From Escherichia coli (GTDB taxonomy: Bacteria > Pseudomonadota > Gammaproteobacteria > Enterobacterales > Enterobacteriaceae): a stretch of 64,000 bases of DNA. The first letter of the stretch is position 1; the number at the start of each line of letters is the position of its first letter. Where the stretch lies: assembly GCF_050320075.1 (NCBI RefSeq), contig NZ_CP190018.1; one strand, written 5' to 3'. A model generated the notes under the pieces. The model was not told the origin of the DNA. It was given only the letters and a program-made list of their open reading frames with translations, and did no database searches. The position numbers and the translations under genes were made by a program. Below are positions 1,047 through 18,675 of this stretch, one piece after another.

Positions 1047-3023
1047 ATGCAGCTTAATCATATCGTTAAAAGTCTGCTAATAACGGGATTATTCACCACC
1101 AGTTCTTTACCTCTCCTCGCGGCGGAAGCTCCTAAAGACGCCACCGCAGCCACGCAACAAGCAAACAATTTACTCTACAACCAGTTGCCGTTTGCCGATA
1201 ACACTGACTTTACTGATGCCCATAAAGGTTTTATTGCCCCTATCCCTCAAGACGTGATTAAGGGCGAACAAGGGAATGTTATCTGGGATCCACAACATTA
1301 CGCTTTTATCAAAGAAGGCGATAAAGCCCCTGATACGGTGAATCCGAGTTTATGGCGTCAGGCGCAACTGATAAATATCAGCGGGTTATTCGAAGTAACT
1401 GAAGGTGTCTATCAGATTCGCAATCTCGATCTATCAAATATGACCATCATTGAAGGCAAAGAGGGTATTACCGTCGTTGATCCCCTTGTTTCAGCAGAAA
1501 CAGCCAAAGTGGGTATGGATCTCTATTACAAAAATCGCGGCAAAAAACCGGTAGTGGCGGTTATCTATACACACAGTCATGTCGATCACTACGGTGGTGT
1601 TCGTGGCGTAATTGATGAAGCTGACGTTAAATCAGGCAAAGTTAAAATCTATGCGCCAGCCGGATTTTTGGAGGAAGCCGTTTCCGAAAACATCATGGCT
1701 GGCAATGTTATGAGCCGACGAGCCAGTTATATGTATGGCAACTTATTGAAACCTGATGTTAAAGGCCAGGTGGGGGCTGGACTGGGAACGACTACTTCAG
1801 CAGGAACAGTCACGTTGATTGCTCCTACTAACTACATCACCAAAACCGGACAAATAGAAACTATTGACGGGTTGACTTATGATTTCCTGATGGCGCCAGG
1901 TTCTGAAGCGCCTTCTGAAATGCTGTGGTTTATTGAAGAAAAGAAACTGATCGAAACCGCTGAAGATGTCACGCACACCCTTCATAACACCTATTCGCTG
2001 CGTGGGGCTAAAATTCGCCAACCGCTGCCGTGGTCAAAATATATTAATGAAGCTCTCAATTTGTGGGGTGATAAAGCCGAGATTATTCTCGCTCAACATC
2101 ACTGGCCAACCTGGGGCAACGATAACGTGGTCAAACTGCTTAAAAGCCAGCGTGATTTGTATCGTTACATCAATGATCAAACTCTGCGCATGGCTAATCA
2201 AGGGATGACCCGTGATGAAATTGCCGCAAACTTTAAACTGCCCTCTTCACTGGCTAACACCTGGGCGAATCGCGGCTATTACGGTTCGGTAAGTCATGAC
2301 GTGAAAGCAACTTACGTGCTTTATCTCGGCTGGTTTGATGGTAACCCCGCGACGCTTGATGAACTGCCGCCAGAAGAAGGCGCAAAAAAATTCGTCGAGT
2401 ATATGGGCGGTGCTGATGCCATTTTACAGAAAGCCACACAGGATTATGACCAGGGTAATTTCCGCTGGGTTGCCCAAGTTGTTAGTAAGGTGGTGTTTGC
2501 CGATCCAAACAACCAGGCAGCGAGAGATCTGGAAGCTGATGCGCTTGAGCAGTTAGGCTATCAGGCTGAATCTGGGCCGTGGCGTAATTTCTATCTCACT
2601 GGTGCACAGGAATTGCGTAATGGCGTACAAAAATTACCAACACCAAATACTGCCAGCCCAGACACCGTGCGTGCGATGACGCCGGAGATGTTCTTTGATT
2701 ATCTTGCCGTCCATATTAATGGTGAGAAAGCGGCAGATGCCAAAACCGTGTTGAATTTCGATTTTGGTGAAGATGGCGGCACCTATAAAGTGGAGCTTGA
2801 AAATGGTGTTCTCAATCATACCGCTGGTGTAGAGGCTTCGGATGCTGATGCCACTATCACTCTGTCTCGTGATGTATTGAACAAAATTGTACTGAAAGAA
2901 GAGACGCTGAAAGAAGCCACGGCCAAAGGAGATGTCAAAATTACTGGCAATGAGGAAAAACTCAACGAGCTGTTAGGTTATATGGATAATTTTGAATTTT
3001 GGTTCAATATAGTGACACCATAA
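1047..3023 (+). CDS. alkyl/aryl-sulfatase, metallo-beta-lactamase fold (YjcS/BDS1-like), with N-terminal signal peptide
   Basis: 658 aa; signal peptide MQLNHIVKSLLITGLFTTSSLPLLAAEA; HSHVDHYGG metal-binding motif; GGAG Shine-Dalgarno upstream. Confidence 0.8.
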   Translation: MQLNHIVKSLLITGLFTTSSLPLLAAEAPKDATAATQQANNLLYNQLPFADNTDFTDAHKGFIAPIPQDVIKGEQGNVIWDPQHYAFIKEGDKAPDTVNPSLWRQAQLINISGLFEVTEGVYQIRNLDLSNMTIIEGKEGITVVDPLVSAETAKVGMDLYYKNRGKKPVVAVIYTHSHVDHYGGVRGVIDEADVKSGKVKIYAPAGFLEEAVSENIMAGNVMSRRASYMYGNLLKPDVKGQVGAGLGTTTSAGTVTLIAPTNYITKTGQIETIDGLTYDFLMAPGSEAPSEMLWFIEEKKLIETAEDVTHTLHNTYSLRGAKIRQPLPWSKYINEALNLWGDKAEIILAQHHWPTWGNDNVVKLLKSQRDLYRYINDQTLRMANQGMTRDEIAANFKLPSSLANTWANRGYYGSVSHDVKATYVLYLGWFDGNPATLDELPPEEGAKKFVEYMGGADAILQKATQDYDQGNFRWVAQVVSKVVFADPNNQAARDLEADALEQLGYQAESGPWRNFYLTGAQELRNGVQKLPTPNTASPDTVRAMTPEMFFDYLAVHINGEKAADAKTVLNFDFGEDGGTYKVELENGVLNHTAGVEASDADATITLSRDVLNKIVLKEETLKEATAKGDVKITGNEEKLNELLGYMDNFEFWFNIVTP

Positions 3024-3035
3024 ATTTACTGCATA

Positions 3036-3062
3036 CCGGGCAGGTATCCTGCCCTTTTTTGG
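3036..3062 (+). terminator. rho-independent terminator after the sulfatase gene
   Basis: GC hairpin GGGCAGG-TATC-CTGCCC followed by a T run. Confidence 0.5.
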
Positions 3063-3069
3063 TTAAAAA

Positions 3070-4167
3070 ATGGCTGAACGAAGAAAAACTCATCACTCAT
3101 GGAAAACCCGCCGCGATATGGTTATTCGCGGCATGACGATTAGTTTGCCATGGTTTGCTTTTATCAATGTCAGTTTTGCATTGATAATTTTGCTGCGCCG
3201 TGTTCTGTTTAATGACCTTACTCCACCCTGGTTAAATGAAAAAAGCCTTATACATTCTATTGATATATCTGCAACGGGTATTCTGCTGATTTGCAGTGGT
3301 TTACTACTCATCCCTCGGCAAAAAACATTACCTATCCAGGTGCTATTAGTTGCCCTGAGCCTGCTATGGTCATGGTGTAGTTATCACTTTATTGCGTACT
3401 GGACGCTGCAGTTTGCTTATCCACTATGTGTATTATTAATGCTTAGTGGCGTTGTCGCACTTTATTTCCATACCCCATCATTGCTCGCATTTGTCATTCC
3501 CTTATGGTTCACCACTCCAATAGCGAGTCTTATGCTTAATCAACAGATCAATATTCATTTTGCTGTTGTATGGTGTATTTTTTCACTGGCGCTATATGGT
3601 GGGCGACTCATTTTGTTACGTTGGTTTGAAGAAGCATGGGTACAAAACAGTTATAACAACCAGTTAATTAATCGCCTTGATGCATTAGCACATCGTGATC
3701 CTTTAACTGGGATAGCAAACCGACGTGCAATGAACAGTATCTTACACGACGCGATGGATAACGGCGGGTCATTTGCTCTTATTATGCTGGATGTCGATTT
3801 TTTTAAACGTTACAACGACACTTACGGGCATCCTGCTGGGGATCGTTGTCTAATACAAGTTGCCGACGCTCTACAGCGTTCAACTCGCCAGTCGGAGGAT
3901 GTTGTTGTCCGTTATGGTGGCGAAGAGTTTGCCATCATACTTTTTAATGCAACATTGCCGGAAGCAGAGACGGTAGCAGCCAGAGTGAAGCAAGAACTTA
4001 AACTGGCAGCTATCCCACATCAGGCATCTGCTGTTAATGCATTTGTTACGGTTAGTCAGGGGATTACCTGTTCTGCTCCCGCAAAAACGGCTGAACAAAT
4101 TATTTCAGATGCCGACGCTGCGTTATACCGGGCGAAAGAAAGTGGGCGAAATCGATGGGCTTTATAA
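3070..4167 (+). CDS. membrane-anchored diguanylate cyclase (GGDEF domain, GGEEF active-site motif); start codon uncertain
   Basis: Hydrophobic multi-helix N-terminal half; C-terminal GGDEF domain with RYGGEEF and DxLTG-like motifs. Confidence 0.8.
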   Translation: MAERRKTHHSWKTRRDMVIRGMTISLPWFAFINVSFALIILLRRVLFNDLTPPWLNEKSLIHSIDISATGILLICSGLLLIPRQKTLPIQVLLVALSLLWSWCSYHFIAYWTLQFAYPLCVLLMLSGVVALYFHTPSLLAFVIPLWFTTPIASLMLNQQINIHFAVVWCIFSLALYGGRLILLRWFEEAWVQNSYNNQLINRLDALAHRDPLTGIANRRAMNSILHDAMDNGGSFALIMLDVDFFKRYNDTYGHPAGDRCLIQVADALQRSTRQSEDVVVRYGGEEFAIILFNATLPEAETVAARVKQELKLAAIPHQASAVNAFVTVSQGITCSAPAKTAEQIISDADAALYRAKESGRNRWAL

Positions 4168-4240: not shown

Positions 4241-4792
4241 CTATCTTCTTAGCGATGTCTTTCTGGTATCACATTGGATCGGTGCAATTATTTTTCCTTT
4301 AATACCCATTATGTTAAGAAATTCAGAAACAGCTGTAATCTCATTGTTTTTTTCATTCGTCTTGATCTTCCAAGGAATCTGACTGTGCATTATTGAGAAC
4401 ACACTAATAACGTGAATCGCTCCCTTGCGACGACTCTTGTCATAAGAGTACCGGAGCGTTTTTCCATCAATTGCAATGACGTCTTTATCATCTGAAGAAT
4501 GGCAGTCAAGCATCCAGTTAATAAAGCACTCATAAAATTTTTCAGGACTGATACAGGATACAACTCTGGCAATGGTATCGTGAACAGGAATACCATTATC
4601 AAAATCACCATATTGCTTCAAAAAATCGAGATGTGTTTCCCCAAAATCCTCTATATCTTCCCAGCCTTCTGCACCCGAAATAACGGCACAAATAGTCAAC
4701 AGTAGAATATCCGATAATTTATGTTCCACTTTCCAGGCTTGTCTGTAATCGGGGATAATAGAAATATGTCCCATCAATTTTTTAAGTTCCAT
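4241..4792 (-). pseudogene. H-repeat-associated (ISAs1-family transposase-like) gene remnant, N-terminal ~183 codons only
   Basis: Aligns to the first half of the 378-codon H-rpt frame at 10493..11629, then diverges and stops. Confidence 0.7.
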
Positions 4793-5377: not shown

Positions 5378-5863
5378 TCATATTTTTAATATAGCCCCAT
5401 GAGCTATAGGATCAAAACCTTCTAACCATGAGGTGTTTTTATCGAATAATGCATCTGTTATATTTATATCGCCATATCTATCACATAATAAATTAGCGCC
5501 ACATAAGTCAGCACCAGAAAAATTTGAATCTTTAACGTCTGCATTGCAAAAGGTTGAATTAGTTAATATAGCACCCTCAAAGTTTGCACCTATTGACCTT
5601 GAATTACTAAAGTCACTTCCAGTGAAATCTGAGTTATTAAGAATAGCGTTCATCAGAGCCGCATTGCGAAAGACAGCATTTCTAGTTGATGTATGTTGAA
5701 TCATTACATTTCTTAAATGGGAATTTTCAAATTTCGCCCCATCAAGACAATAACCATTGAGGATGGCACGATGTAGATCCATCCCGCTAAAATCATATCC
5801 AGCAAGAGTGGTACTATCTATATCAAGAAATTTATTGGTTATTAAAAACGCGATTCTTATCAT
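5378..5863 (-). CDS. pentapeptide-repeat protein, putative immunity protein for the adjacent Rhs C-terminal toxin
   Basis: 161 aa with tandem A(D/N)LxG/F-type pentapeptide repeats; its start overlaps the Rhs stop by 4 bp (ATGA); AT-rich. Confidence 0.75.
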
Positions 5864-8800
5864 CTATTCCCCCAATCATCTAACTCCGGAAAAATTTGGC
5901 TAAACGGATATAGTGGTGCCGATAATGGACGCGTACCTGGCCGCTCAGGAGGAAGTTTATCACATAACAGACCCGCAACCATCCTGTGATTACCATTAAC
6001 AATCACATTCCCATCCATATCAACCGGTGGTGCTCCACTACCATCTTCCAGCATTTGTACGTAGTGAGCTACTACGGGTACTGAGACTTTTTGTTGTACT
6101 GTCAACAAGGGACTGTTGGCCACAACCATCCTGATGTTTTCAGGTGTCGTAGGTAAACATTTAGTCTTCTCTTGACTAAAGGTATCATCCCACAATTTTG
6201 TTAAACCCATCACTGCCTGTTGTCTGTATTTATCCATGGGGTCAGCAATCAACCAAGATGGACCTGACTGCTCTATGGAATCTTCTCCGGAGAGACCCAA
6301 CGGATCTATCTTAGTAGTTGGATTCAATGGATACTGATACAGGTTCCATGCACCTCTTAGCCCAATGGGATCCTGGGTGATATACCGCCCCTGCAACGGG
6401 TCATAGTACCGGTTGCGGTTATAGTACAGCCCCGACTCCTCATCATACTGCTGCCCCGGCAGACGGTACGGCTGTTGCAGTTGCTGCGCGCTGGTTTCGC
6501 CCAGCAGGTTTCCCCACTCGTCATACTCCCCCTGCCACGCCGTTTCCCCTTCCGGGCTGATGAGCGCCTGCGGCAGCCCCCGGTGGTCGCAGTGGTAAAG
6601 ATGAAGTGTCCTCTCCGGGATGTATTCCGCCTCCATCTGGTTTTTCATCTGTTCCGCCGTCAGCCCGCACTGCTGAAGCCATGCCTCACTCTCCGCACTC
6701 ACCGCACCCGCGCGCAGTTCCCGCTCCAGCCTCCCCAGCATCACCGACAGCTCCGCCGGTAGCGTCACCCCCGTGTCCTCCTGCAACACCTCCGCCAGAC
6801 TCCGGTGCCGCGCCTTCGCCTGTTCACCATTCTCTGTTTCGATTCTGATGAGCGGCGTGAAGCTCCCCGGCTGGTATACCGTCTGGATACGCGTGGTGCC
6901 GGTCTGTACCGTCGTCAGCCTGTCACCGTCCCACCCGTACCAGGTCTCCTCCGGTTTACGCGACAGCGACATCCACCCCGTCAGGTCACGCTCCCGCCGC
7001 CACACCCGTTTCCCCGTCCGGCGGCCCAGCGGGTCATAGAGGTAGCGGCTCTCCACCTGTGGCTCGCCGTGCTGTATCCGCGTGTAGAACACCAGGCGGT
7101 GCTGGCTGTCGTAATGGTAGTGGTGCGTCCGCTCGTCGTGCATCCGTATCACCCCTTCCGGGATACGGTCCGTCTTCTCCGCCAGCCTGCCGTATTCATC
7201 GTAGCGGTAGACATAGTGCGCATCTTCCGTGATGCGGTTATCCGGCCACGCCGTGAAGGTGCTGTCCGGGTGCAGTTCCGGGTCCGGCAGCCGGTTTCCT
7301 GCCGGGTCCGTCGCATACGGGATATCGATATCCAGGTTCGCCGCCGTGGTGTGAACGCCCGTCAGTCTTCCCGTGTCGCTGTAACGGTACTTCCGGCTCT
7401 CCTGCGGGCCGCTGATGCGCACCAGTTGCCCGTTATCGTTCCACGTATACTCACGGTCAAGCTGCGGAAGGTTCAGGTGCCTGCTCCGGAGCTGCCCTGT
7501 GAGGGTGTACGCCGTGGCCTGTTCGTACCCCGCTGTACTGCCCGCCCCGCCGAAGCTGCGGGCCGTCTCACGGTGCAGCCGGTCCCGCGTGTACTCGACC
7601 AGCGGCGTTCCGCCCAGCTTCATCCCCGCAAGATAACCGCTGCCATACGTCAGCCACTCCACCGGCGGCAGACCGTCCGGCTCCTGACGGGTCGCCAGCC
7701 CCTGTTCGCTGTAGACGTGCCTCGTCTCATGCTCCCACAGCATCTCCCCCGTCTCCTGGTTCTCCACCGTCTGCCGTTCGCCCGTCAGGCGGCCTTTATC
7801 GTCATAGCCGTAGTGGACCGCCACACGGTGGCCTTCGCTCAGGTGGCTGATTTCTGTCAGCCAGCCGTGGTCGTCATACTGCCACTGCTCCGCCGGGTCG
7901 CCGTTCACCGTCCGGTGCGTGATGCGCCCGGCGTCATCGTAGTACCACTGCGTGACCTGCCCCTCATCCTCGCTGCGGATGAGCTGCCCTGTGGCGCTGT
8001 ACCGGTAACGCTGTGTCCTGCCGTCAAAGCCGCGCTGCTCCGTCAGCCTGTCCACCGGGTCATACCGGAACGTGGACTGGCTGCCGTTCTCGTTGGTCAG
8101 CACGGTGATGCGCCCGGCGGCGTCATACTCCATGCTGCGCGTCAGTCCGCCCTGCGTGGTGCTGACGGCCTTTCCCCACGCATCATACTGTGTCTCACTC
8201 CGGCTGCCGTTCGGGGCAATGATAGCGGTGAGGTCGCCTGCGGCGCTGTACTCATAACGGGTTTCACGTCCCTGCGCATCCTTCTGACTGACCAGTTGAC
8301 CACGCGGGTTATAACTGCTGTAAGTGCTGATGCCTTCCTCCCGGTGAACCGCCGTCCTCTGACCGTACCGGTCGTATTCATACCGCGTCGTGTACCCTGA
8401 ACAGTCCGTAAATGCCTGAAGCTGACCGTACCGGTTTCGCGTTATTCTCCGCCTCACCCCGGTTCCGTCTTCCACCGCACAGGGCAGGCCACTGCGGGAA
8501 GAATCATAAAACCAGCGCGTAATGTTACCGTTGCGCGAGACCTCTTCCGCCAGCCTGCCCTGACGGTCATATTTCCGGCTGCGGCGCAGCCCGTCCGGGT
8601 ACGTCACTGACGTCAGTTGCAACTGGTTGTTGTAACCATACCGTACCGTCCTGCCGTCCGGCAGTATCACTGAAGTCAGCTTTCCCGACGCCATATGCAG
8701 CCGGTACTCCGTCCGCCGTCCCGCCGCATCCGTCTGCGCCTTCAGCCTCCCCGCCTCATCATACTCGCTGCGGGTGATGCTCCCGTCCCCATACTCCTTC

Positions 8801-10071
8801 TTCACCACCCGCTTCAGGCCGCCCTCGCCCTCCGTGTACAGCACCTCCCGCCGGTTCAGGCTGTCCGTGATGGTCACGCGGTCCTGCCCGTACTCAAAGC
8901 GGTAGTCCAGCCCCTCCGGGTTGACCTGCTCCGTCACCCGACCGGTATCATCATACCGGTAGCGGCTCTCCGGCCTCCCCGCATAATGGTGCGCCACCAT
9001 CCGCCCGGCGTGCTCCGCATCATAAGTAAACCCGCGCACCTGCGTCCCGCTGCGGTCATACACCGCCCGCAGTTCTCCGCTGGCCGTGTACGTGTAGCGC
9101 GCCAGCGGCGCAGTCGGCAGTTCATCCGGGTATGCCGGGTCGTGTGTCAGCCATACCGCCTCCAGCCGGATACCGTTATCGGCACCGTACTCTGTACCGG
9201 TGGGCAGCGTGTCGGGGAAAAACTGAGAAGAGGAAACAGAACGGGGACTGGCCGGAGAAGATAAAGAAGACTCGCGCTGTTTACGGAAGGCTTTCGCCCG
9301 CTGCGCCTGTGTGGTCAGCGCCAGATGAAAACGGCGGCCCGCGCCGTCCGTCACCCCCGTCACCGCGCCCGCCGCTTCCCCCTCTGCCGCCCGGTGGAAG
9401 GCCAGCGTCCGCCCGAAGCCGTCCACCACGCCCGTCAGCACCCGGTATGCGGGCGGCTCCGGCGGCAGCACCTCGTCCGCCTCCGGCACCCGCTCCGGCC
9501 AGCCGAGTATCCACCACGGCCCCTGAAGGCTGTTTGTCGCCAGGTACACATGCGGGCTTAAGCGGAGACTCTCCGGCAGCACCTGCCAGAGCGCGCTTAG
9601 CGGCTGCGAACTGTGCTGCTCCGCCACCCCGCCCCTTGCCAGCCAGAACGACTCGCTGCGGCTGTAGCTTATCTCGCCGGGAAACAGCGGCTCAAAGTGA
9701 ATGCTCCTGCCGCCACTGTCGTTGAGTATCAGTTCCCGCTCATGAACCTGTAAGCGGATATCGAAGGGCGCTTTCCAGCCGGGACCAAACACCCCCACCG
9801 GCGCGGGTGTCCTGGTCCGGTAGCTGCTGTAGGCGCGGGAAAGAATAAACGGCAACGGGCCGGGCAGCGCAAGATCCGTCTCGCCCGGCAGCACCTTCGC
9901 ACCCAGTAGCGGGTTCACCGGGTTACCCTTCTGCTCCTCCACCGGGCTGTTGGGACACACCGAGCAGGCCACTCCCGTCGGCGCACCTATCAGCACCCCC
10001 GCTGAACCCTGCACAATATCCAGTCCCTTGCGGGTCATATCGCCCTGTCGCGCCGCCGGTTTTCCGCTCAT
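5860..10071 (-). CDS. full-length Rhs family protein: PAAR-like N-terminus, YD-repeat core, DPLGL boundary, variable C-terminal toxin domain
   Basis: 1403 aa; conserved Rhs N-terminus [13 protein letters not shown]; many YD/RYxYD repeats; PxxxxDPLGL motif; GC-rich core. Confidence 0.9.
5863..6291 (-). other. Rhs C-terminal variable toxin domain (~143 aa after DPLGL), family not recognised
   Basis: Sequence after the DPLGL motif is unrelated to the conserved core and lower in GC. Confidence 0.6.
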
Positions 10072-10492: not shown

Positions 10493-11629
10493 TCATGAAG
10501 GCCCGCAGCCAGCAAGGATTAGAGAAAGGTATTCATTCTTACGTCCTGCCCGCTTTTGCTTGCGTTTAATACCCGCTTTAAAGCTATTCTCTGCGGTCAG
10601 TAAATTCATCGCGATATGTCGACAAACTGCCAGATTTTCTCCCGCTTCTCCACGAACAATCTGGCATTCATCTTCCCGCATCCCCATATCAAGTCGCCAG
10701 TGCAGTTGATTTTCTACCGACCAGTGTGCTCGTGTTGCTTCCAGGAGTTCTTTCGCCGTAAGCGTCACCGAACTTATGTAGTAGCGAAGAATACACTTCT
10801 CTGATTTCACCGCTGTTTCTCCTTCCTGTCTGCTCGCCAGCACTATTCCTATCGTGCTCAGCTCTGACCATTCATAAGCTAAATCACCCAGAGCGGTTAA
10901 ATCATGGCTCACAATGCAGCATCGTGTATCTTCCCGTCCATGCCCTTTTTCCTGCGTGCTGTAACTGTCATACCTCTCACCCAGCCACATTGTCGGCGAG
11001 TACCCGTTATCAAACGCCTCCGCTAATTTTCCCTGATTTCCTTTCAGCGCCAGCAGGTAACCGGCTTTCTTTTTCAGAATTTCACGGGCGATTATATGCT
11101 GGCAACCCATTGCATCCAGCGTGACCAGACACCCTTTTAATTCCAGCAACTGGAGCCGTTCCGGGATCGCCGTTATCTCATTCGATTTTGCCCCTGTTTT
11201 CACCTGCCCCAAAACCAGACGATTTTCTGCGCTAAAAGCACTGACCCTATGGATCACGGCATTACGTTTCGATTTATCGTAAGTACCCCGTAATGACTTA
11301 CCATCAATCGCCACAACAGAGCCTTCAGACAACGTGTGACAGTCCTTCATCTACTGGATAAAAAGGGGCTGTAATTGTTTTGCTGAAATCATTCCCATCA
11401 CTCGGGCAATCGTGTGATGGGAGGGGGTGCCATTTTCAAAATCACCATACAGGCGTAACCATTCCAGATGCTCCTCACCAAAATCAGCAATTTCTTCCCA
11501 TCCTTCAGCGCCACCGATAATGGCGGTGATCGTCAGAAAAAGGATATCCGCCAGGCTGTAACTGGTTTTCCAGGACTGGCGATAATCGTGAATAATTGAA
11601 ATTTGATCCAAAAGGCTTAGTCCGTTCAT
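10493..11629 (-). pseudogene. H-repeat-associated protein (ISAs1-family transposase-like), 378 codons interrupted by an in-frame TAG at 11351..11353
   Basis: ORFs 11351..11629 and 10493..11350 are contiguous in one frame, separated only by TAG; the fragment at 4241..4792 has W at that position. Confidence 0.7.
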
Positions 11630-11679
11630 GGTGTGCTATCCATCAAAAAGAAAGGATAAGATCACACTGAAATAAGATG

Positions 11680-11810
11680 GTCAAATTGATCGAAAAAAAA
11701 GATCAACATGATGGGTTTTACGATAAAAGTAATGTCGCGATTTAAAAATTCATCATTCACCAAAGTCTTGTGGGGCGCGGGCTTTCATGCTTTTTCCCTG
11801 ATACGCTACC
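11680..11810 (-). repeat. H-rpt element upstream-end repeat, copy B
   Basis: Closely similar to 4940..5065. Confidence 0.6.
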
Positions 11811-12040
11811 GCTCTGCCCTGATAACATGATCTGCACGGCGCTATCATATCGACATATTTCTCTACATGCGAAAGGATGTTTTATTTTCGGATTATATTA
11901 AATTGATATTTCATATAAAAAACGAGATTACATAAATCATATAAATAATTGTACCAACTTTAATTACCATTCATAGCAAACAAATGGATGTCCAGTTAAC
12001 TACGCCAGTGATTTATTAACATTAATCTCCGGCATTATTG

Positions 12041-12647
12041 TTAAATAATGGCATTCCTTTTTAGTATTTCTTGTAACGTTGGTATCGGACATACAGCATC
12101 AGCAATCGCACTGATATTCGCGGCATTATCTTGAAACCATTCATGCCCCGGTCCCCATATGCGCATAACGCAGAGATAAGGGTAGCTGATCGCCAAACGC
12201 ATAAGGTTCAGCAGTGAGCTACGAATTCAACCAGATATAAAACGATTTTCGATATTCAATAACATTCTTCTTTAACTGTTCGGGTGCGTCAGGAGCCCAA
12301 CGCTCAGGGTAATCGGCGAAAGTGAATGTTGGATAGACATTAGCAACCAGCCAGACCAATAGCCGTTGAAACTGCTGACGTTCGGCGCGCCCAACCGGTG
12401 GCGCAAGGTCCGGGCGACGATCGAGAACCATCAATGCAATCGCCGCTGTCTCCGTCATAATCTCGTCATTTTCCAGCGCCAGTGTCGGAATCTGACACAA
12501 CGGGTTCAGGGTTTTCAATAACTCGCGTGAGGTTCCCTCGTGGTCAAAACCACTGACATCAACGAACTGATAAGGAATATCAGCCAGTGTTAGCATCAGC
12601 TCACTGATTGTAGAGCCCCATCCGGGTACGCCATACACCTTAATCAT
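12041..12647 (-). pseudogene. yncG: glutathione S-transferase homologue, disrupted by an in-frame TAG (12219..12221) and a downstream frameshift
   Basis: 142-aa N-terminal GST-like ORF ends at TAG; the GST C-terminal remnant CVMRIWGPGHEWFQDNAANISAIADAV continues in another frame to a stop near 12041. Confidence 0.6.
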
Positions 12648-12913
12648 ATGCCCCTCACAATCTTTTAAAGATTAAGTGTAGGACAGTACACAGGTTAACC
12701 AGCAAAAGGATTTGTCATTTTTTCGTCAGTTGTATTATTCCCCTTCAGGATTGTAAGGGGATGTTTTGCATCGTTTATCGATAACGGGTAGGATGCTGCG
12801 CCGATAGTTTTATACCCATAAAGAATAATGGTGATAACTATCATCGCCAGGATGAATAAACATTGTTCATGGCAACTTATATGACTTTTTCATTAAAGCA
12901 ATCAGGGAGAGCA

Positions 12914-14413
12914 ATGAGTAAACACGACACCGACACTTCAGATCAACACGCCGCGAAACGCCGCTGGCTTAATGCCCACGAAGAGGGGTATCACAAAGCG
13001 ATGGGCAATCGCCAGGTACAGATGATCGCCATTGGCGGCGCGATTGGTACGGGTTTGTTTTTAGGCGCGGGAGCCCGACTGCAAATGGCGGGGCCAGCAC
13101 TGGCACTGGTCTATTTGATCTGCGGCCTGTTTTCATTTTTTATTCTGCGTGCATTGGGTGAGCTGGTGTTACACCGCCCTTCCAGTGGCAGTTTTGTCTC
13201 TTATGCCCGTGAGTTTTTAGGAGAGAAAGCCGCTTACGTTGCAGGCTGGATGTACTTCATCAACTGGGCGATGACGGGGATTGTCGATATTACCGCCGTC
13301 GCTCTGTATATGCATTACTGGGGTGCGTTTGGCGGCGTGCCGCAGTGGGTCTTTGCGCTCGCTGCGCTGACCATCGTTGGCACCATGAATATGATCGGTG
13401 TGAAATGGTTTGCCGAGATGGAGTTCTGGTTTGCGCTTATTAAAGTGCTCGCCATTGTTACCTTTTTGGTCGTGGGTACAGTGTTCCTCGGTAGTGGTCA
13501 GCCGCTGGATGGCAACACCACTGGTTTTCATTTAATTACCGATAACGGCGGCTTCTTCCCCCACGGTTTGCTGCCTGCGCTGGTGTTGATTCAGGGCGTA
13601 GTGTTTGCTTTTGCCTCCATTGAAATGGTGGGTACAGCTGCCGGAGAATGTAAAGATCCGCAGACCATGGTGCCTAAAGCCATTAACAGTGTGATTTGGC
13701 GTATTGGCCTGTTTTACGTCGGCTCCGTGGTGTTGCTGGTTATGTTATTGCCGTGGAGCGCATATCAGGCGGGGCAAAGTCCGTTCGTGACGTTTTTCTC
13801 TAAACTGGGTGTGCCATATATCGGCAGCATTATGAACATTGTGGTGCTGACCGCTGCCCTCTCCAGCCTGAACTCAGGTCTGTACTGCACCGGACGTATT
13901 CTGCGCTCAATGGCGATGGGCGGTTCCGCACCGAGTTTTATGGCGAAAATGAGTCGTCAGCATGTGCCGTATGCCGGGATTCTGGCGACACTGGTTGTGT
14001 ATGTCGTCGGCGTATTCCTCAACTATCTGGTGCCGTCGCGCGTATTTGAGATTGTGTTGAACTTCGCGTCGCTGGGAATTATCGCCTCATGGGCGTTTAT
14101 CATCGTGTGCCAGATGCGCCTGCGTAAAGCGATTAAAGAAGGCAAAGCCGCGGATGTCAGTTTTAAACTGCCTGGCGCGCCCTTCACTTCCTGGCTGACA
14201 TTACTGTTTTTGCTGAGCGTCCTGGTGCTGATGGCGTTCGATTACCCGAACGGGACTTATACCATCGCGGCGCTGCCGATTATCGGTATTCTGCTGGTTA
14301 TAGGCTGGTTTGGTGTGCGCAAACGCGTTGCTGAAATTCACAGCACTGCGCCAGTCGTCGAGGAAGATGAAGAACAACAGGAAATTGTGTTTAAGCCTGA
14401 AACGGCGAGTTAA
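12914..14413 (+). CDS. ansP: L-asparagine permease (APC family amino-acid transporter)
   Basis: 499 aa from MSKHDTDTSDQ with GGGAGAG Shine-Dalgarno; polytopic membrane protein. Confidence 0.9.
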   Translation: MSKHDTDTSDQHAAKRRWLNAHEEGYHKAMGNRQVQMIAIGGAIGTGLFLGAGARLQMAGPALALVYLICGLFSFFILRALGELVLHRPSSGSFVSYAREFLGEKAAYVAGWMYFINWAMTGIVDITAVALYMHYWGAFGGVPQWVFALAALTIVGTMNMIGVKWFAEMEFWFALIKVLAIVTFLVVGTVFLGSGQPLDGNTTGFHLITDNGGFFPHGLLPALVLIQGVVFAFASIEMVGTAAGECKDPQTMVPKAINSVIWRIGLFYVGSVVLLVMLLPWSAYQAGQSPFVTFFSKLGVPYIGSIMNIVVLTAALSSLNSGLYCTGRILRSMAMGGSAPSFMAKMSRQHVPYAGILATLVVYVVGVFLNYLVPSRVFEIVLNFASLGIIASWAFIIVCQMRLRKAIKEGKAADVSFKLPGAPFTSWLTLLFLLSVLVLMAFDYPNGTYTIAALPIIGILLVIGWFGVRKRVAEIHSTAPVVEEDEEQQEIVFKPETAS

Positions 14414-17964: not shown

Positions 17965-18675
17965 ATTGTGCACAGAAAACCCCCAGCTAGGCTGGGGGTT
18001 CCGGAAAGCTTTCAGCTTTAAGCCAGTTATTAAAACCCCTTTTGATTTGTTAAAACACCTTGCGGTCTGGCAACTGCAAGTGTCAAACAAGAAATCAAAA
18101 GGGGGTCCCAATGGGGAACGAAAAGAGCTTAGCGCACACCCGATGGAACTGTAAATATCACATAGTTTTTGCGCCAAAATACCGAAGACAGGTGTTCTAC
18201 AGAGAGAAGCGTAGAGCAATAGGCAGTATTTTGAGAAAGCTGTGTGAGTGGAAAAGTGTACGGATTCTGGAAGCTGAATGCTGTGCAGATCATATCCATA
18301 TGCTTGTGGAGATCCCGCCCAAAATGAGCGTATCCGGCTTTATGGGATATCTGAAAGGGAAAAGCAGTCTGATGCTTTACGAGCAGTTTGGTGATTTGAA
18401 ATTCAAATACAGGAACAGGGAGTTCTGGTGCAGAGGGTACTACGTCGATACGGTGGGTAAGAACACGGCGAAGATACAGGATTACATAAAGCACCAGCTT
18501 GAAGAGGATAAAATGGGAGAGCAGTTATCGATTCCCTATCCGGGCAGCCCGTTTACGGGCCGTAAGTAACGAAGTTGGATGCAAATGTCAGATCGTGTGC
18601 GCCTGTTAGGGCGCGGCTGGTAAGAGAGCCTTATAGGCGCATTTGAAAAACCTCCGGCTATGCCGGAGGATATTT
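17965..18675 (+). mobile_element. IS200-like insertion sequence (IS200/IS605 family), boundaries approximate
   Basis: Left-end hairpin CCCCCAGCTAGGCTGGGGG just upstream of a 152-aa HUH/Y1 transposase; about 0.7 kb. Confidence 0.6.
18111..18569 (+). CDS. tnpA: IS200 transposase TnpA (Y1 HUH transposase, 152 aa)
   Basis: MGNEKSLAHTRWNCKYHIVFAPKYRR with HxH motif (ADHIHML) and catalytic Tyr region. Confidence 0.85.
   Translation: MGNEKSLAHTRWNCKYHIVFAPKYRRQVFYREKRRAIGSILRKLCEWKSVRILEAECCADHIHMLVEIPPKMSVSGFMGYLKGKSSLMLYEQFGDLKFKYRNREFWCRGYYVDTVGKNTAKIQDYIKHQLEEDKMGEQLSIPYPGSPFTGRK

What the first reader, a model, noticed from the sequence alone, without database searches (positions are those of the whole stretch)
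12041..12647. yncG is a decaying pseudogene with both an amber codon and a frameshift
The GST-like frame stops at TAG (12219..12221) after WLNS. Downstream, LTAEPYAFGDQL continues in frame and then the GST C-terminal motif CVMRIWGPGHEWFQDNAANISAIADAV appears in a different frame, ending near 12041. Two independent lesions indicate relaxed selection on this gene next to the Rhs/H-rpt region.
Basis: partly seen in the sequence, partly recalled or inferred. Interest (0 to 1): 0.35.

Follow-up and report, generated by a model that had tools for sequence, protein, structure and literature searches.

The report
Dead yncG gene in E. coli
This is an ordinary, already annotated dead copy of the E. coli glutathione-transferase-like gene yncG; it was broken first by a small deletion and later by a stop codon, and about 3% of sequenced E. 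coli strains inherited it.

Summary
On the minus strand, the yncG frame (ATG at 12647) stops at TAG 12219-12221 after ...WLNS. LTAEPYAFGDQL follows in frame. The C-terminal 45 residues (YLCVMRIWGPGH...RNAII, stop 12041-12043) lie in another frame.

Compared with intact alleles, the lesions are CAG->TAG at codon 143 and a net 11-bp loss at codons 156-160. The loss is best read as a 1-bp plus a 10-bp deletion. It removes the Thr-x-x-Asp N-capping box at the start of helix alpha-6 of the GST fold.

The window is E. coli CFSAN061763. NCBI's PGAP already annotates these exact coordinates as a yncG pseudogene, "frameshifted; internal stop".

The same deletion allele is in 141 of 5,426 complete E. 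coli genomes, including ST38 strains, so it is not a sequencing error. Five of those genomes have the deletion but still CAG, so the frameshift came first and the amber codon later.

Orthologues in other Enterobacteriaceae are all 205-206 aa. yncG has also been broken independently in other E. coli lineages by IS insertions, other indels and nonsense codons.

Adjacency to Rhs/H-rpt is real but explains nothing: K-12 has an intact yncG next to RhsE.

Verdict: ordinary and already known. One untested curiosity: the deletion removes the gene's Chi or Chi-like octamer, around which several independent lesions cluster.

The parts
12041..12647 (-). yncG pseudogene (607 bp; intact alleles are 618 bp and encode 205 aa)
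   Evidence: PGAP feature CA897_RS12350 'frameshifted; internal stop' at these exact coordinates. Alignments to intact alleles.
12222..12647 (-). Remaining open frame of 142 codons: the GST N-terminal thioredoxin-like domain plus the first helices of the C-terminal domain
   Evidence: ORF list. Pfam GST_N_2, GST_N_3 and GST_N match residues 2-79 above their cut-offs; there is no GST_C match.
12219..12221 (-). Amber codon TAG, replacing Gln143 (CAG); this is the younger lesion
   Evidence: All intact alleles and five deletion-bearing genomes have CAG here.
12178..12184 (-). Deletion scar CT-A-CCCT|T. The net loss is 11 bp, removing codons Thr156-Cys160. It is best read as loss of one A of CTAACC (at 12183/12182) plus loss of GGTGGACTGT (between 12179 and 12178). 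This is the older lesion. It removes the N-capping box TLVD and the Chi/Chi-like octamer.
   Evidence: Alignments A2, A4 and A6. A delA-only allele exists in AP027512.1. Chi lies at nt 468-475 of the K-12 allele. YncG T156-D159 aligns with T152-D155 of 1pmt.
12041..12177 (-). Out-of-frame remnant of the YncG C-terminus (residues 162-205 plus the original stop TAA at 12041-12043)
   Evidence: ORF 12041..12202. Alignment to intact alleles.

Best explanation
This is a fixed, inherited pseudogene of yncG, a beta-class-like glutathione S-transferase homologue of Enterobacteriaceae. It sits in a lineage of E. coli that includes ST38 and the window's strain, CFSAN061763.

Shown: an ancestor with a PT62-like 3' haplotype (…CAGCTAACCCTGGTGGACTGTTATC…) lost 11 bp at codons 156-160, most simply as a 1-bp and a 10-bp deletion. 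This shifted the frame for the last 45 residues. It also removed the Thr-Leu-Val-Asp N-capping box at the start of helix alpha-6.

Shown: a sub-lineage later acquired CAG->TAG at codon 143.

Inferred: the product is non-functional as a GST. At best it is a 142-aa fragment (168 aa in the deletion-only stage). It has the thioredoxin-like domain but lacks alpha-6 to alpha-8 of the helical domain. The N-capping box is described as critical for GST folding and stability.

Inferred: the gene is dispensable in this lineage, so later mutations are accumulating neutrally.
For: - Lesions placed by alignment to four intact alleles.
- PGAP pseudogene annotation at identical coordinates.
- The deletion allele is present at >=99% identity in 141 of 5,426 complete genomes from many labs and hosts. 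These include the ST38 strains 28Eco12 and 266917_2 (PMC6963479).
- Five genomes carry the deletion but keep CAG (NRZ14408 sequenced twice, OW967178, OZ547043, GMF054). PGAP notes NRZ14408 as 'frameshifted' only.
- No intact allele among complete genomes carries this lineage's 3' haplotype.
- Orthologues in Citrobacter, Enterobacter, Leclercia, Kosakonia and Salmonella are uniformly 205-206 aa.
- pN/pS is about 0.8-1.0 on the pseudogene branch in codons 135-205, against 0.12-0.21 among intact alleles.
- T156-D159 aligns with the T152-D155 N-capping box of Proteus mirabilis GST 1pmt. The motif's role in folding is described in PMC3319563.
- There is a single copy in this chromosome (H1 has 1 place).
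Against: - No expression or activity data, so loss of function is inferred from sequence.
- The 5' 400 bp show no decay: 2 synonymous and 0 non-synonymous differences from the O145 allele. That could reflect recent recombination, too little time, or residual constraint on the N-terminal fragment.
- The pN/pS contrast rests on 8 substitutions (p about 0.05-0.16).
- Two of the 'private' 3' SNPs are shared with another allele, CP012379, so they are not all post-inactivation changes.
Confidence: 0.95

Rival explanations
1. The two lesions are sequencing or assembly errors in an otherwise intact gene.
For: None found. An 11-bp gap and a C->T change are not typical homopolymer errors.
Against: The identical deletion is in 141 independent complete assemblies, and the amber codon is in up to 136 of them. 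The allele has diversified into sub-haplotypes: window and NRZ14408 differ at 4 sites.
Confidence: 0.01
2. The truncated 142-aa N-terminal fragment, a thioredoxin-fold domain, is still made. It is kept by selection as a stand-alone glutaredoxin-like or GSH-binding protein, so the locus is a remodelled gene rather than a dead one.
For: - The start codon, the ribosome-binding region and the upstream intergenic DNA are conserved with intact alleles.
- The GST_N Pfam domains are intact.
- The 5' part has 0 non-synonymous changes against the O145 allele.
Against: - The fragment includes only a partial helical domain (alpha-4/alpha-5) without the folding nucleus at alpha-6, which usually gives unstable protein.
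- The deletion-only relatives would make a different 168-aa product, so no single truncated form is conserved.
- The low 5' divergence is equally explained by recombination; the gene is mosaic, with a diversity break near nt 456.
- NRZ14408 has a V85L change in the 5' part.
Confidence: 0.05
3. The indel is one 11-bp deletion followed by two adjacent substitutions (TG->CC), not a 1-bp plus a 10-bp deletion. This is a rival about anatomy only; the pseudogene conclusion does not change.
For: This is MAFFT's default placement against K-12-type alleles. No allele with only the 10-bp or only the 1-bp deletion was found on this lineage's haplotype among complete genomes.
Against: - It needs three events rather than two.
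- It needs the two substitutions to recreate, by coincidence, the ACCCT string that the nearest intact alleles (PT62, LHM10-1) have just upstream.
- A natural allele with only the 1-bp deletion in the same CTAACCCTGG context exists (AP027512.1).
Confidence: 0.25
4. This is programmed recoding: stop-codon read-through plus ribosomal frameshifting restores a full-length YncG.
For: None.
Against: - All orthologues outside this lineage are single uninterrupted 205-206-aa ORFs.
- The arrangement is confined to one E. coli lineage and arose stepwise.
- Even perfect recoding could not restore the five deleted codons that include the N-capping box.
- There is no Rfam match.
Confidence: 0.005

Closest known systems
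Intact E. coli K-12 YncG (b1454; WP_000598857.1), a putative glutathione S-transferase homologue
   Same: It is the same locus by synteny (mcbR-pqqU-yncE-ansP-yncG). The DNA is about 95% identical. The start, the ribosome-binding region and the first 142 codons are near-identical.
   Different: K-12 has an uninterrupted 205-codon ORF with a canonical Chi octamer at nt 468-475. The window allele has TAG at codon 143, lacks 11 bp at codons 156-160, and has its C-terminus out of frame. K-12 yncG raised H2O2 tolerance when overexpressed, though the same paper cites an earlier study that found no GSH activity for YncG in cell-free expression (PMC8228696).
The deletion-only yncG allele of E. coli NRZ14408 (LT599825 / NZ_CP158426)
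   Same: It has the same 11-bp loss, the same 3' haplotype and the same neighbours: an ISAs1 pseudogene with internal stop, an identical RHS core protein WP_001563834.1, and IS200C next to pqqU.
   Different: It keeps CAG at codon 143, and PGAP notes it as 'frameshifted' only. It differs at three other sites in the gene. It represents the earlier stage of decay.
Other independent yncG pseudogenes in E. coli/Shigella
   Same: The same gene has been inactivated in natural isolates. Several lesions lie within about 10 nt of the site deleted here: delA at nt 465 (AP027512), delA at nt 477 (P0102), delT at nt 480 (P0142), an IS3-family insertion after nt 477 (P0106), and IS1A at nt 459 (ETEC1746).
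   Different: These are different events on different haplotypes. Others lie elsewhere: IS1B at nt 585, a 127-bp deletion, +T at nt 175, W139*.
Beta-class bacterial GSTs with solved structures (Proteus mirabilis GST B1-1, 1pmt; E. coli Gst, 1a0f)
   Same: The repaired YncG sequence aligns over residues 3-171 with 1pmt (E = 1e-12). That alignment includes the Thr-x-x-Asp N-capping box at the start of helix alpha-6.
   Different: Similarity is only distant. The window allele lacks the N-capping box and everything after it in frame.

Membership tests
Pseudogene of yncG (non-functional relic of an orthologous gene) | Orthology to a known intact gene, shown by sequence and conserved gene order | tested here: met
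   ansP-yncG synteny and 90-100% DNA identity in 4,620 of 5,426 complete genomes.
Pseudogene of yncG (non-functional relic of an orthologous gene) | Reading frame disrupted relative to intact orthologues | tested here: met
   TAG at codon 143 and a net -11 bp at codons 156-160. Orthologues are 205-206 aa.
Pseudogene of yncG (non-functional relic of an orthologous gene) | The lesions are real and heritable, not sequencing artefacts | tested here: met
   141 independent complete assemblies share the deletion. Five lack the amber codon, which gives a nested pattern.
Pseudogene of yncG (non-functional relic of an orthologous gene) | Relaxed selective constraint after inactivation | tested here: inconclusive
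   pN/pS is 0.8-1.0 against 0.12-0.21 in codons 135-205. This rests on only 8 substitutions (p 0.05-0.16), and some of the SNPs are inherited haplotype variation. The second, later lesion is itself consistent with relaxed constraint.
Pseudogene of yncG (non-functional relic of an orthologous gene) | Loss of the protein or its activity | not testable with these tools
   Needs proteomics or enzymology on ST38 or CFSAN061763.
Functional cytosolic GST superfamily member | N-terminal thioredoxin-like GSH-binding domain | tested here: met
   Pfam GST_N_2 (34.3 bits), GST_N_3 and GST_N are above their cut-offs on the 142-aa ORF.
Functional cytosolic GST superfamily member | [quoted passage not shown] | tested here: not met
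   Codons T156-C160 are deleted and residues 161-205 are out of frame. The motif was located by alignment to 1pmt. Its role is described in PMC3319563.
Programmed recoding site (frameshift or read-through) | The two-frame arrangement is conserved across related taxa | tested here: not met
   It is confined to 141 E. coli genomes. All other alleles and genera have a single ORF.

The most novel reading that the evidence does not exclude
The site of the frameshifting deletion may be a mutational hotspot linked to Chi.

Intact K-12 and O145 alleles carry a canonical Chi octamer (GCTGGTGG) at yncG nt 468-475, and related alleles carry CCTGGTGG or CTTGGTGG. The octamer is oriented so that RecBCD arriving from the variable Rhs/T6SS island side would recognise it.

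Synonymous diversity among intact alleles jumps about 3- to 5-fold just there. Six of 17 independent yncG lesions seen here fall within nt 459-481. They comprise three different -1 deletions, two IS insertions and this deletion.

If real, Chi-dependent end processing or repair synthesis at the border of a hypervariable island would be both setting the recombination breakpoint and repeatedly breaking the gene.
Probability: 0.1. Interest if true: 0.45.

Novelty: already known. Interest (0 to 1): 0.1.

Why it matters
It matters little. This is a routine lineage-specific gene loss that the public annotation already records.

The loss shows that yncG, a poorly characterised GST homologue whose overexpression raises H2O2 tolerance in K-12, is dispensable in a globally successful lineage (ST38 and relatives). 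The gene has also been lost repeatedly in E. coli and Shigella. The nested lesions (deletion only, then deletion plus amber) could serve as a simple lineage marker.

The one point worth a further look is that the deletion, and several independent lesions in other lineages, coincide with the gene's Chi octamer at the edge of a hypervariable island.

Tried and rejected
- I searched complete E. coli genomes for intermediate alleles on this haplotype, with only the 10-bp or only the 1-bp deletion. None were found.
- I searched for an intact allele carrying this lineage's 3' SNPs. There is none among complete genomes. In the 5.8-billion-protein search the best cluster representatives were 93% identical. 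Clusters are formed at 90% identity, so a closer member could be hidden inside one.
- An Rfam scan of 11500-13000 gave no match. The promoter/terminator consensus scan of 11900-12950 found nothing. I therefore make no statement about transcription signals.
- I first considered the 3' SNP cluster to be accelerated post-mortem decay, and rejected that as the sole cause. The intergenic flank shows similar lineage-private divergence. Two of the SNPs are shared with CP012379. The whole 3' end is hypervariable among intact alleles.
- I tried to obtain the sequence type of NRZ14408 from PMC5365728; that paper is not held.
- The test of lesion clustering around Chi gave a scan-corrected P of about 0.07 on a biased sample, so I do not claim it as a finding.

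Full report
**1. The observation**

On the minus strand an ORF starts at ATG 12647 and runs for 142 codons, ending ...RKSFYIWLNS. It stops at TAG 12219-12221. Reading on in the same frame gives LTAEPYAFGDQL and then unrelated residues (PLSLRYAHMGTGA, stop).

A second ORF (12041..12202, minus strand) contains YLCVMRIWGPGHEWFQDNAANISAIADAVCPIPTLQEILKRNAII. It ends at TAA 12041-12043.

**2. What it is**

The window is 100% identical to the chromosome of E. coli CFSAN061763 (NZ_CP042899.1; raw-milk cheese, Egypt). Window base 1 corresponds to record base 2,553,503.

Gene order is the conserved mcbR-pqqU-yncE-ansP-yncG. A match to this 901-bp query (the gene plus flanks) is found in 4,620 of 5,426 complete E. 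coli genomes. A K-12 yncG query matches 4,606 genomes.

**3. Anatomy of the lesions**

I aligned the window to intact alleles: K-12-like PG20180058, O145 RM8995, PT62 and LHM10-1. This places a C->T change that turns Gln143 CAG into TAG. It also places a net 11-bp loss at codons 156-160. The gene is 607 bp against 618 bp intact.

The nearest intact alleles (PT62, LHM10-1) read CAGCTAACCCTGGTGGACTGTTATC. The window reads CAGCTACCCTTATC. No single 11-bp deletion produces this string. The options are one 11-bp deletion plus TG->CC, or a 1-bp deletion (one A of CTAACC) plus a 10-bp deletion (GGTGGACTGT).

The second option needs fewer events and preserves the ancestral ACCCT. An allele with only the 1-bp deletion, in the same sequence context, exists in nature (AP027512.1 and about 39 database blocks; P0107). 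I therefore favour three lesions in total (confidence about 0.7). No intermediate on this particular haplotype was found among complete genomes.

**4. Real and inherited, and the order of events**

The deletion-bearing 3' segment occurs at >=99% identity in 141 complete genomes from many laboratories, hosts and countries. This excludes a sequencing error. The carriers include 28Eco12 and 266917_2, which are ST38 (PMC6963479).

Against a query "repaired" to CAG plus 11 bp, five records match every remaining base. They are NRZ14408 (sequenced twice), OW967178, OZ547043 and GMF054. They therefore carry the deletion but keep CAG. The window's own record and the others listed have one further mismatch. 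PGAP notes NRZ14408's yncG as "frameshifted" only.

So the frameshift came first and the amber codon arose later in a sub-lineage. This nested pattern is expected for a gene that was already dead. NRZ14408 shares the same neighbours as the window: an ISAs1 pseudogene, an identical RHS core protein, and IS200C beside pqqU.

**5. Consequence for the protein (inferred)**

In that alignment, YncG Thr156-Leu-Val-Asp159 lies on Thr152-Val-Ala-Asp155 of 1pmt. This is the Ser/Thr-x-x-Asp N-capping box at the start of helix alpha-6. Together with the hydrophobic staple, the motif is described as critical for folding, stability and catalysis in mammalian GSTs and the beta-class PmGST (PMC3319563).

The deletion removes exactly these codons and shifts the frame of residues 161-205. 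The amber codon then cuts the product to 142 aa. Loss of GST-type function is a strong inference, but I did not show it.

For K-12 yncG, overexpression raised the H2O2 MIC five-fold. The same paper cites an earlier study reporting no GSH activity for YncG in cell-free expression (PMC8228696).

**6. Is selection relaxed?**

Orthologues in Citrobacter, Enterobacter, Leclercia, Kosakonia and Salmonella are uniformly 205-206 aa. Among intact E. coli alleles pN/pS is 0.12-0.23. The gene is therefore normally constrained, and no homologue naturally ends at codon 142.

On the pseudogene branch (against PT62, codons 135-205) there are 6-7 non-synonymous and 2 synonymous changes, giving pN/pS of 0.8-1.0. 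The contrast is only marginally significant (one-sided Fisher p = 0.05-0.16).

Not all of the 3' SNP cluster is decay:
- The intergenic flank down to the ISAs1 junction carries similar lineage-private divergence.
- Two of the SNPs are shared with CP012379, an independently decayed allele.
- The 3' third of yncG is hypervariable even among intact alleles, with pS 0.12-0.33 against 0.02-0.06 in the 5' part.

The 5' 400 bp of the window allele are almost identical to the O145 allele. The gene is therefore a recombination mosaic.

**7. Context**

yncG has been inactivated many times independently:
- IS1A at nt 459 with loss of the 3' end (ETEC1746).
- IS1B at nt 585 (EC96).
- An IS3-family element after nt 477 (P0106).
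- Single-base deletions at nt 465, 477 and 480 (P0107, P0102, P0142).
- A 127-bp deletion plus a 1-bp deletion (VTB96933v).
- +T at nt 175 and delC at nt 537 (CP012379).
- W139* in E. coli and S. boydii (P0121).

Most genomes nevertheless keep an intact gene. Adjacency to Rhs/H-rpt is real: the ISAs1 pseudogene is at 10493-11629 and the RHS core gene at 5860-10071. It does not explain the loss, because K-12 has an intact yncG next to RhsE and H-rpt elements. The lesions are also about 240 bp or more from the island junction.

**8. A side observation**

Intact K-12 and O145 alleles have a canonical Chi octamer, GCTGGTGG, at yncG nt 468-475 on the coding strand. PT62-like alleles have CCTGGTGG. 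The window's deletion removes this octamer.

The orientation is such that RecBCD coming from the island side would recognise it. Chi is recognised only from its 3' GG side (PMC3607216). The jump in diversity lies just upstream of it.

Six of the 17 independent lesions I catalogued fall in nt 459-481. After correcting for post hoc window choice and for limited detectability, P is about 0.07. The sample is also biased by how the truncated proteins were found. I record this as a lead, not a finding.

**9. Verdict**

The feature is an ordinary lineage-specific pseudogene that is already flagged in the public annotation. Novelty: already known. Interest: low.

Noticed in passing
window 12178-12184 (-); L002:6621-6628: Intact K-12 and O145 yncG alleles carry a canonical Chi octamer (GCTGGTGG) at nt 468-475, exactly where the window allele has its deletion. 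Related alleles have CCTGGTGG or CTTGGTGG. The window has 9 Chi sites against 1.7 expected, but none in yncG.
   Followed up: partly
window 12041-12647 compared with L002, L003, L004, L006: Synonymous divergence among intact yncG alleles rises from 0.02-0.06 (codons 1-134) to 0.12-0.33 (codons 135-205), with the break near nt 456. The downstream flank is likewise highly polymorphic. The gene straddles the edge of a hypervariable island that holds Rhs, T6SS PAAR/VgrG or hypothetical genes, depending on the strain.
   Followed up: partly
L008, L011, L012, L013, L014, L015; proteins P0102, P0106, P0107, P0121, P0130, P0142: There are many independent yncG inactivations in other E. coli/Shigella: IS1 and IS3-family insertions, three different 1-bp deletions at nt 465, 477 and 480, a 127-bp deletion, W139*, and others. 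Six of 17 lesions lie within nt 459-481 (scan-corrected P about 0.07, biased sample).
   Followed up: partly
window 10493-11629 (-), 4242-4792 (-), 5860-10071 (-), 5378-5863 (-): Downstream of yncG lie an ISAs1-family (H-repeat) transposase pseudogene with an internal stop (two abutting ORFs of 92 and 285 aa) and a second ISAs1 fragment. There is also a full-length RHS element core protein, followed by a small pentapeptide-repeat ORF that overlaps its end; its position suggests a cognate immunity gene.
   Followed up: no
window 18111-18569 (+): An IS200C transposase gene is inserted between pqqU and mcbR. It is absent from K-12, O145 and PT62 at this position but present in NRZ14408, so it marks the same lineage as the yncG deletion.
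   Followed up: no
L014 (E. coli VTB96933v) 1501-3490: In this strain yncG, the adjacent DUF5445 (yncH-like) gene and the VgrG gene are all annotated as frameshifted pseudogenes. That suggests either region-wide decay or a lower-quality assembly.
   Followed up: no
L015 (CP012379.1) 2284-2900: This is a heavily decayed yncG allele with a +1 insertion that creates a stop at nt 175, a 1-bp deletion at nt 537 and many substitutions. It shares two 3' SNPs (T166I and a synonymous G169 change) with the window lineage, so those SNPs are not private to the deletion lineage; they either predate the window's deletion or were exchanged by recombination.
   Followed up: partly
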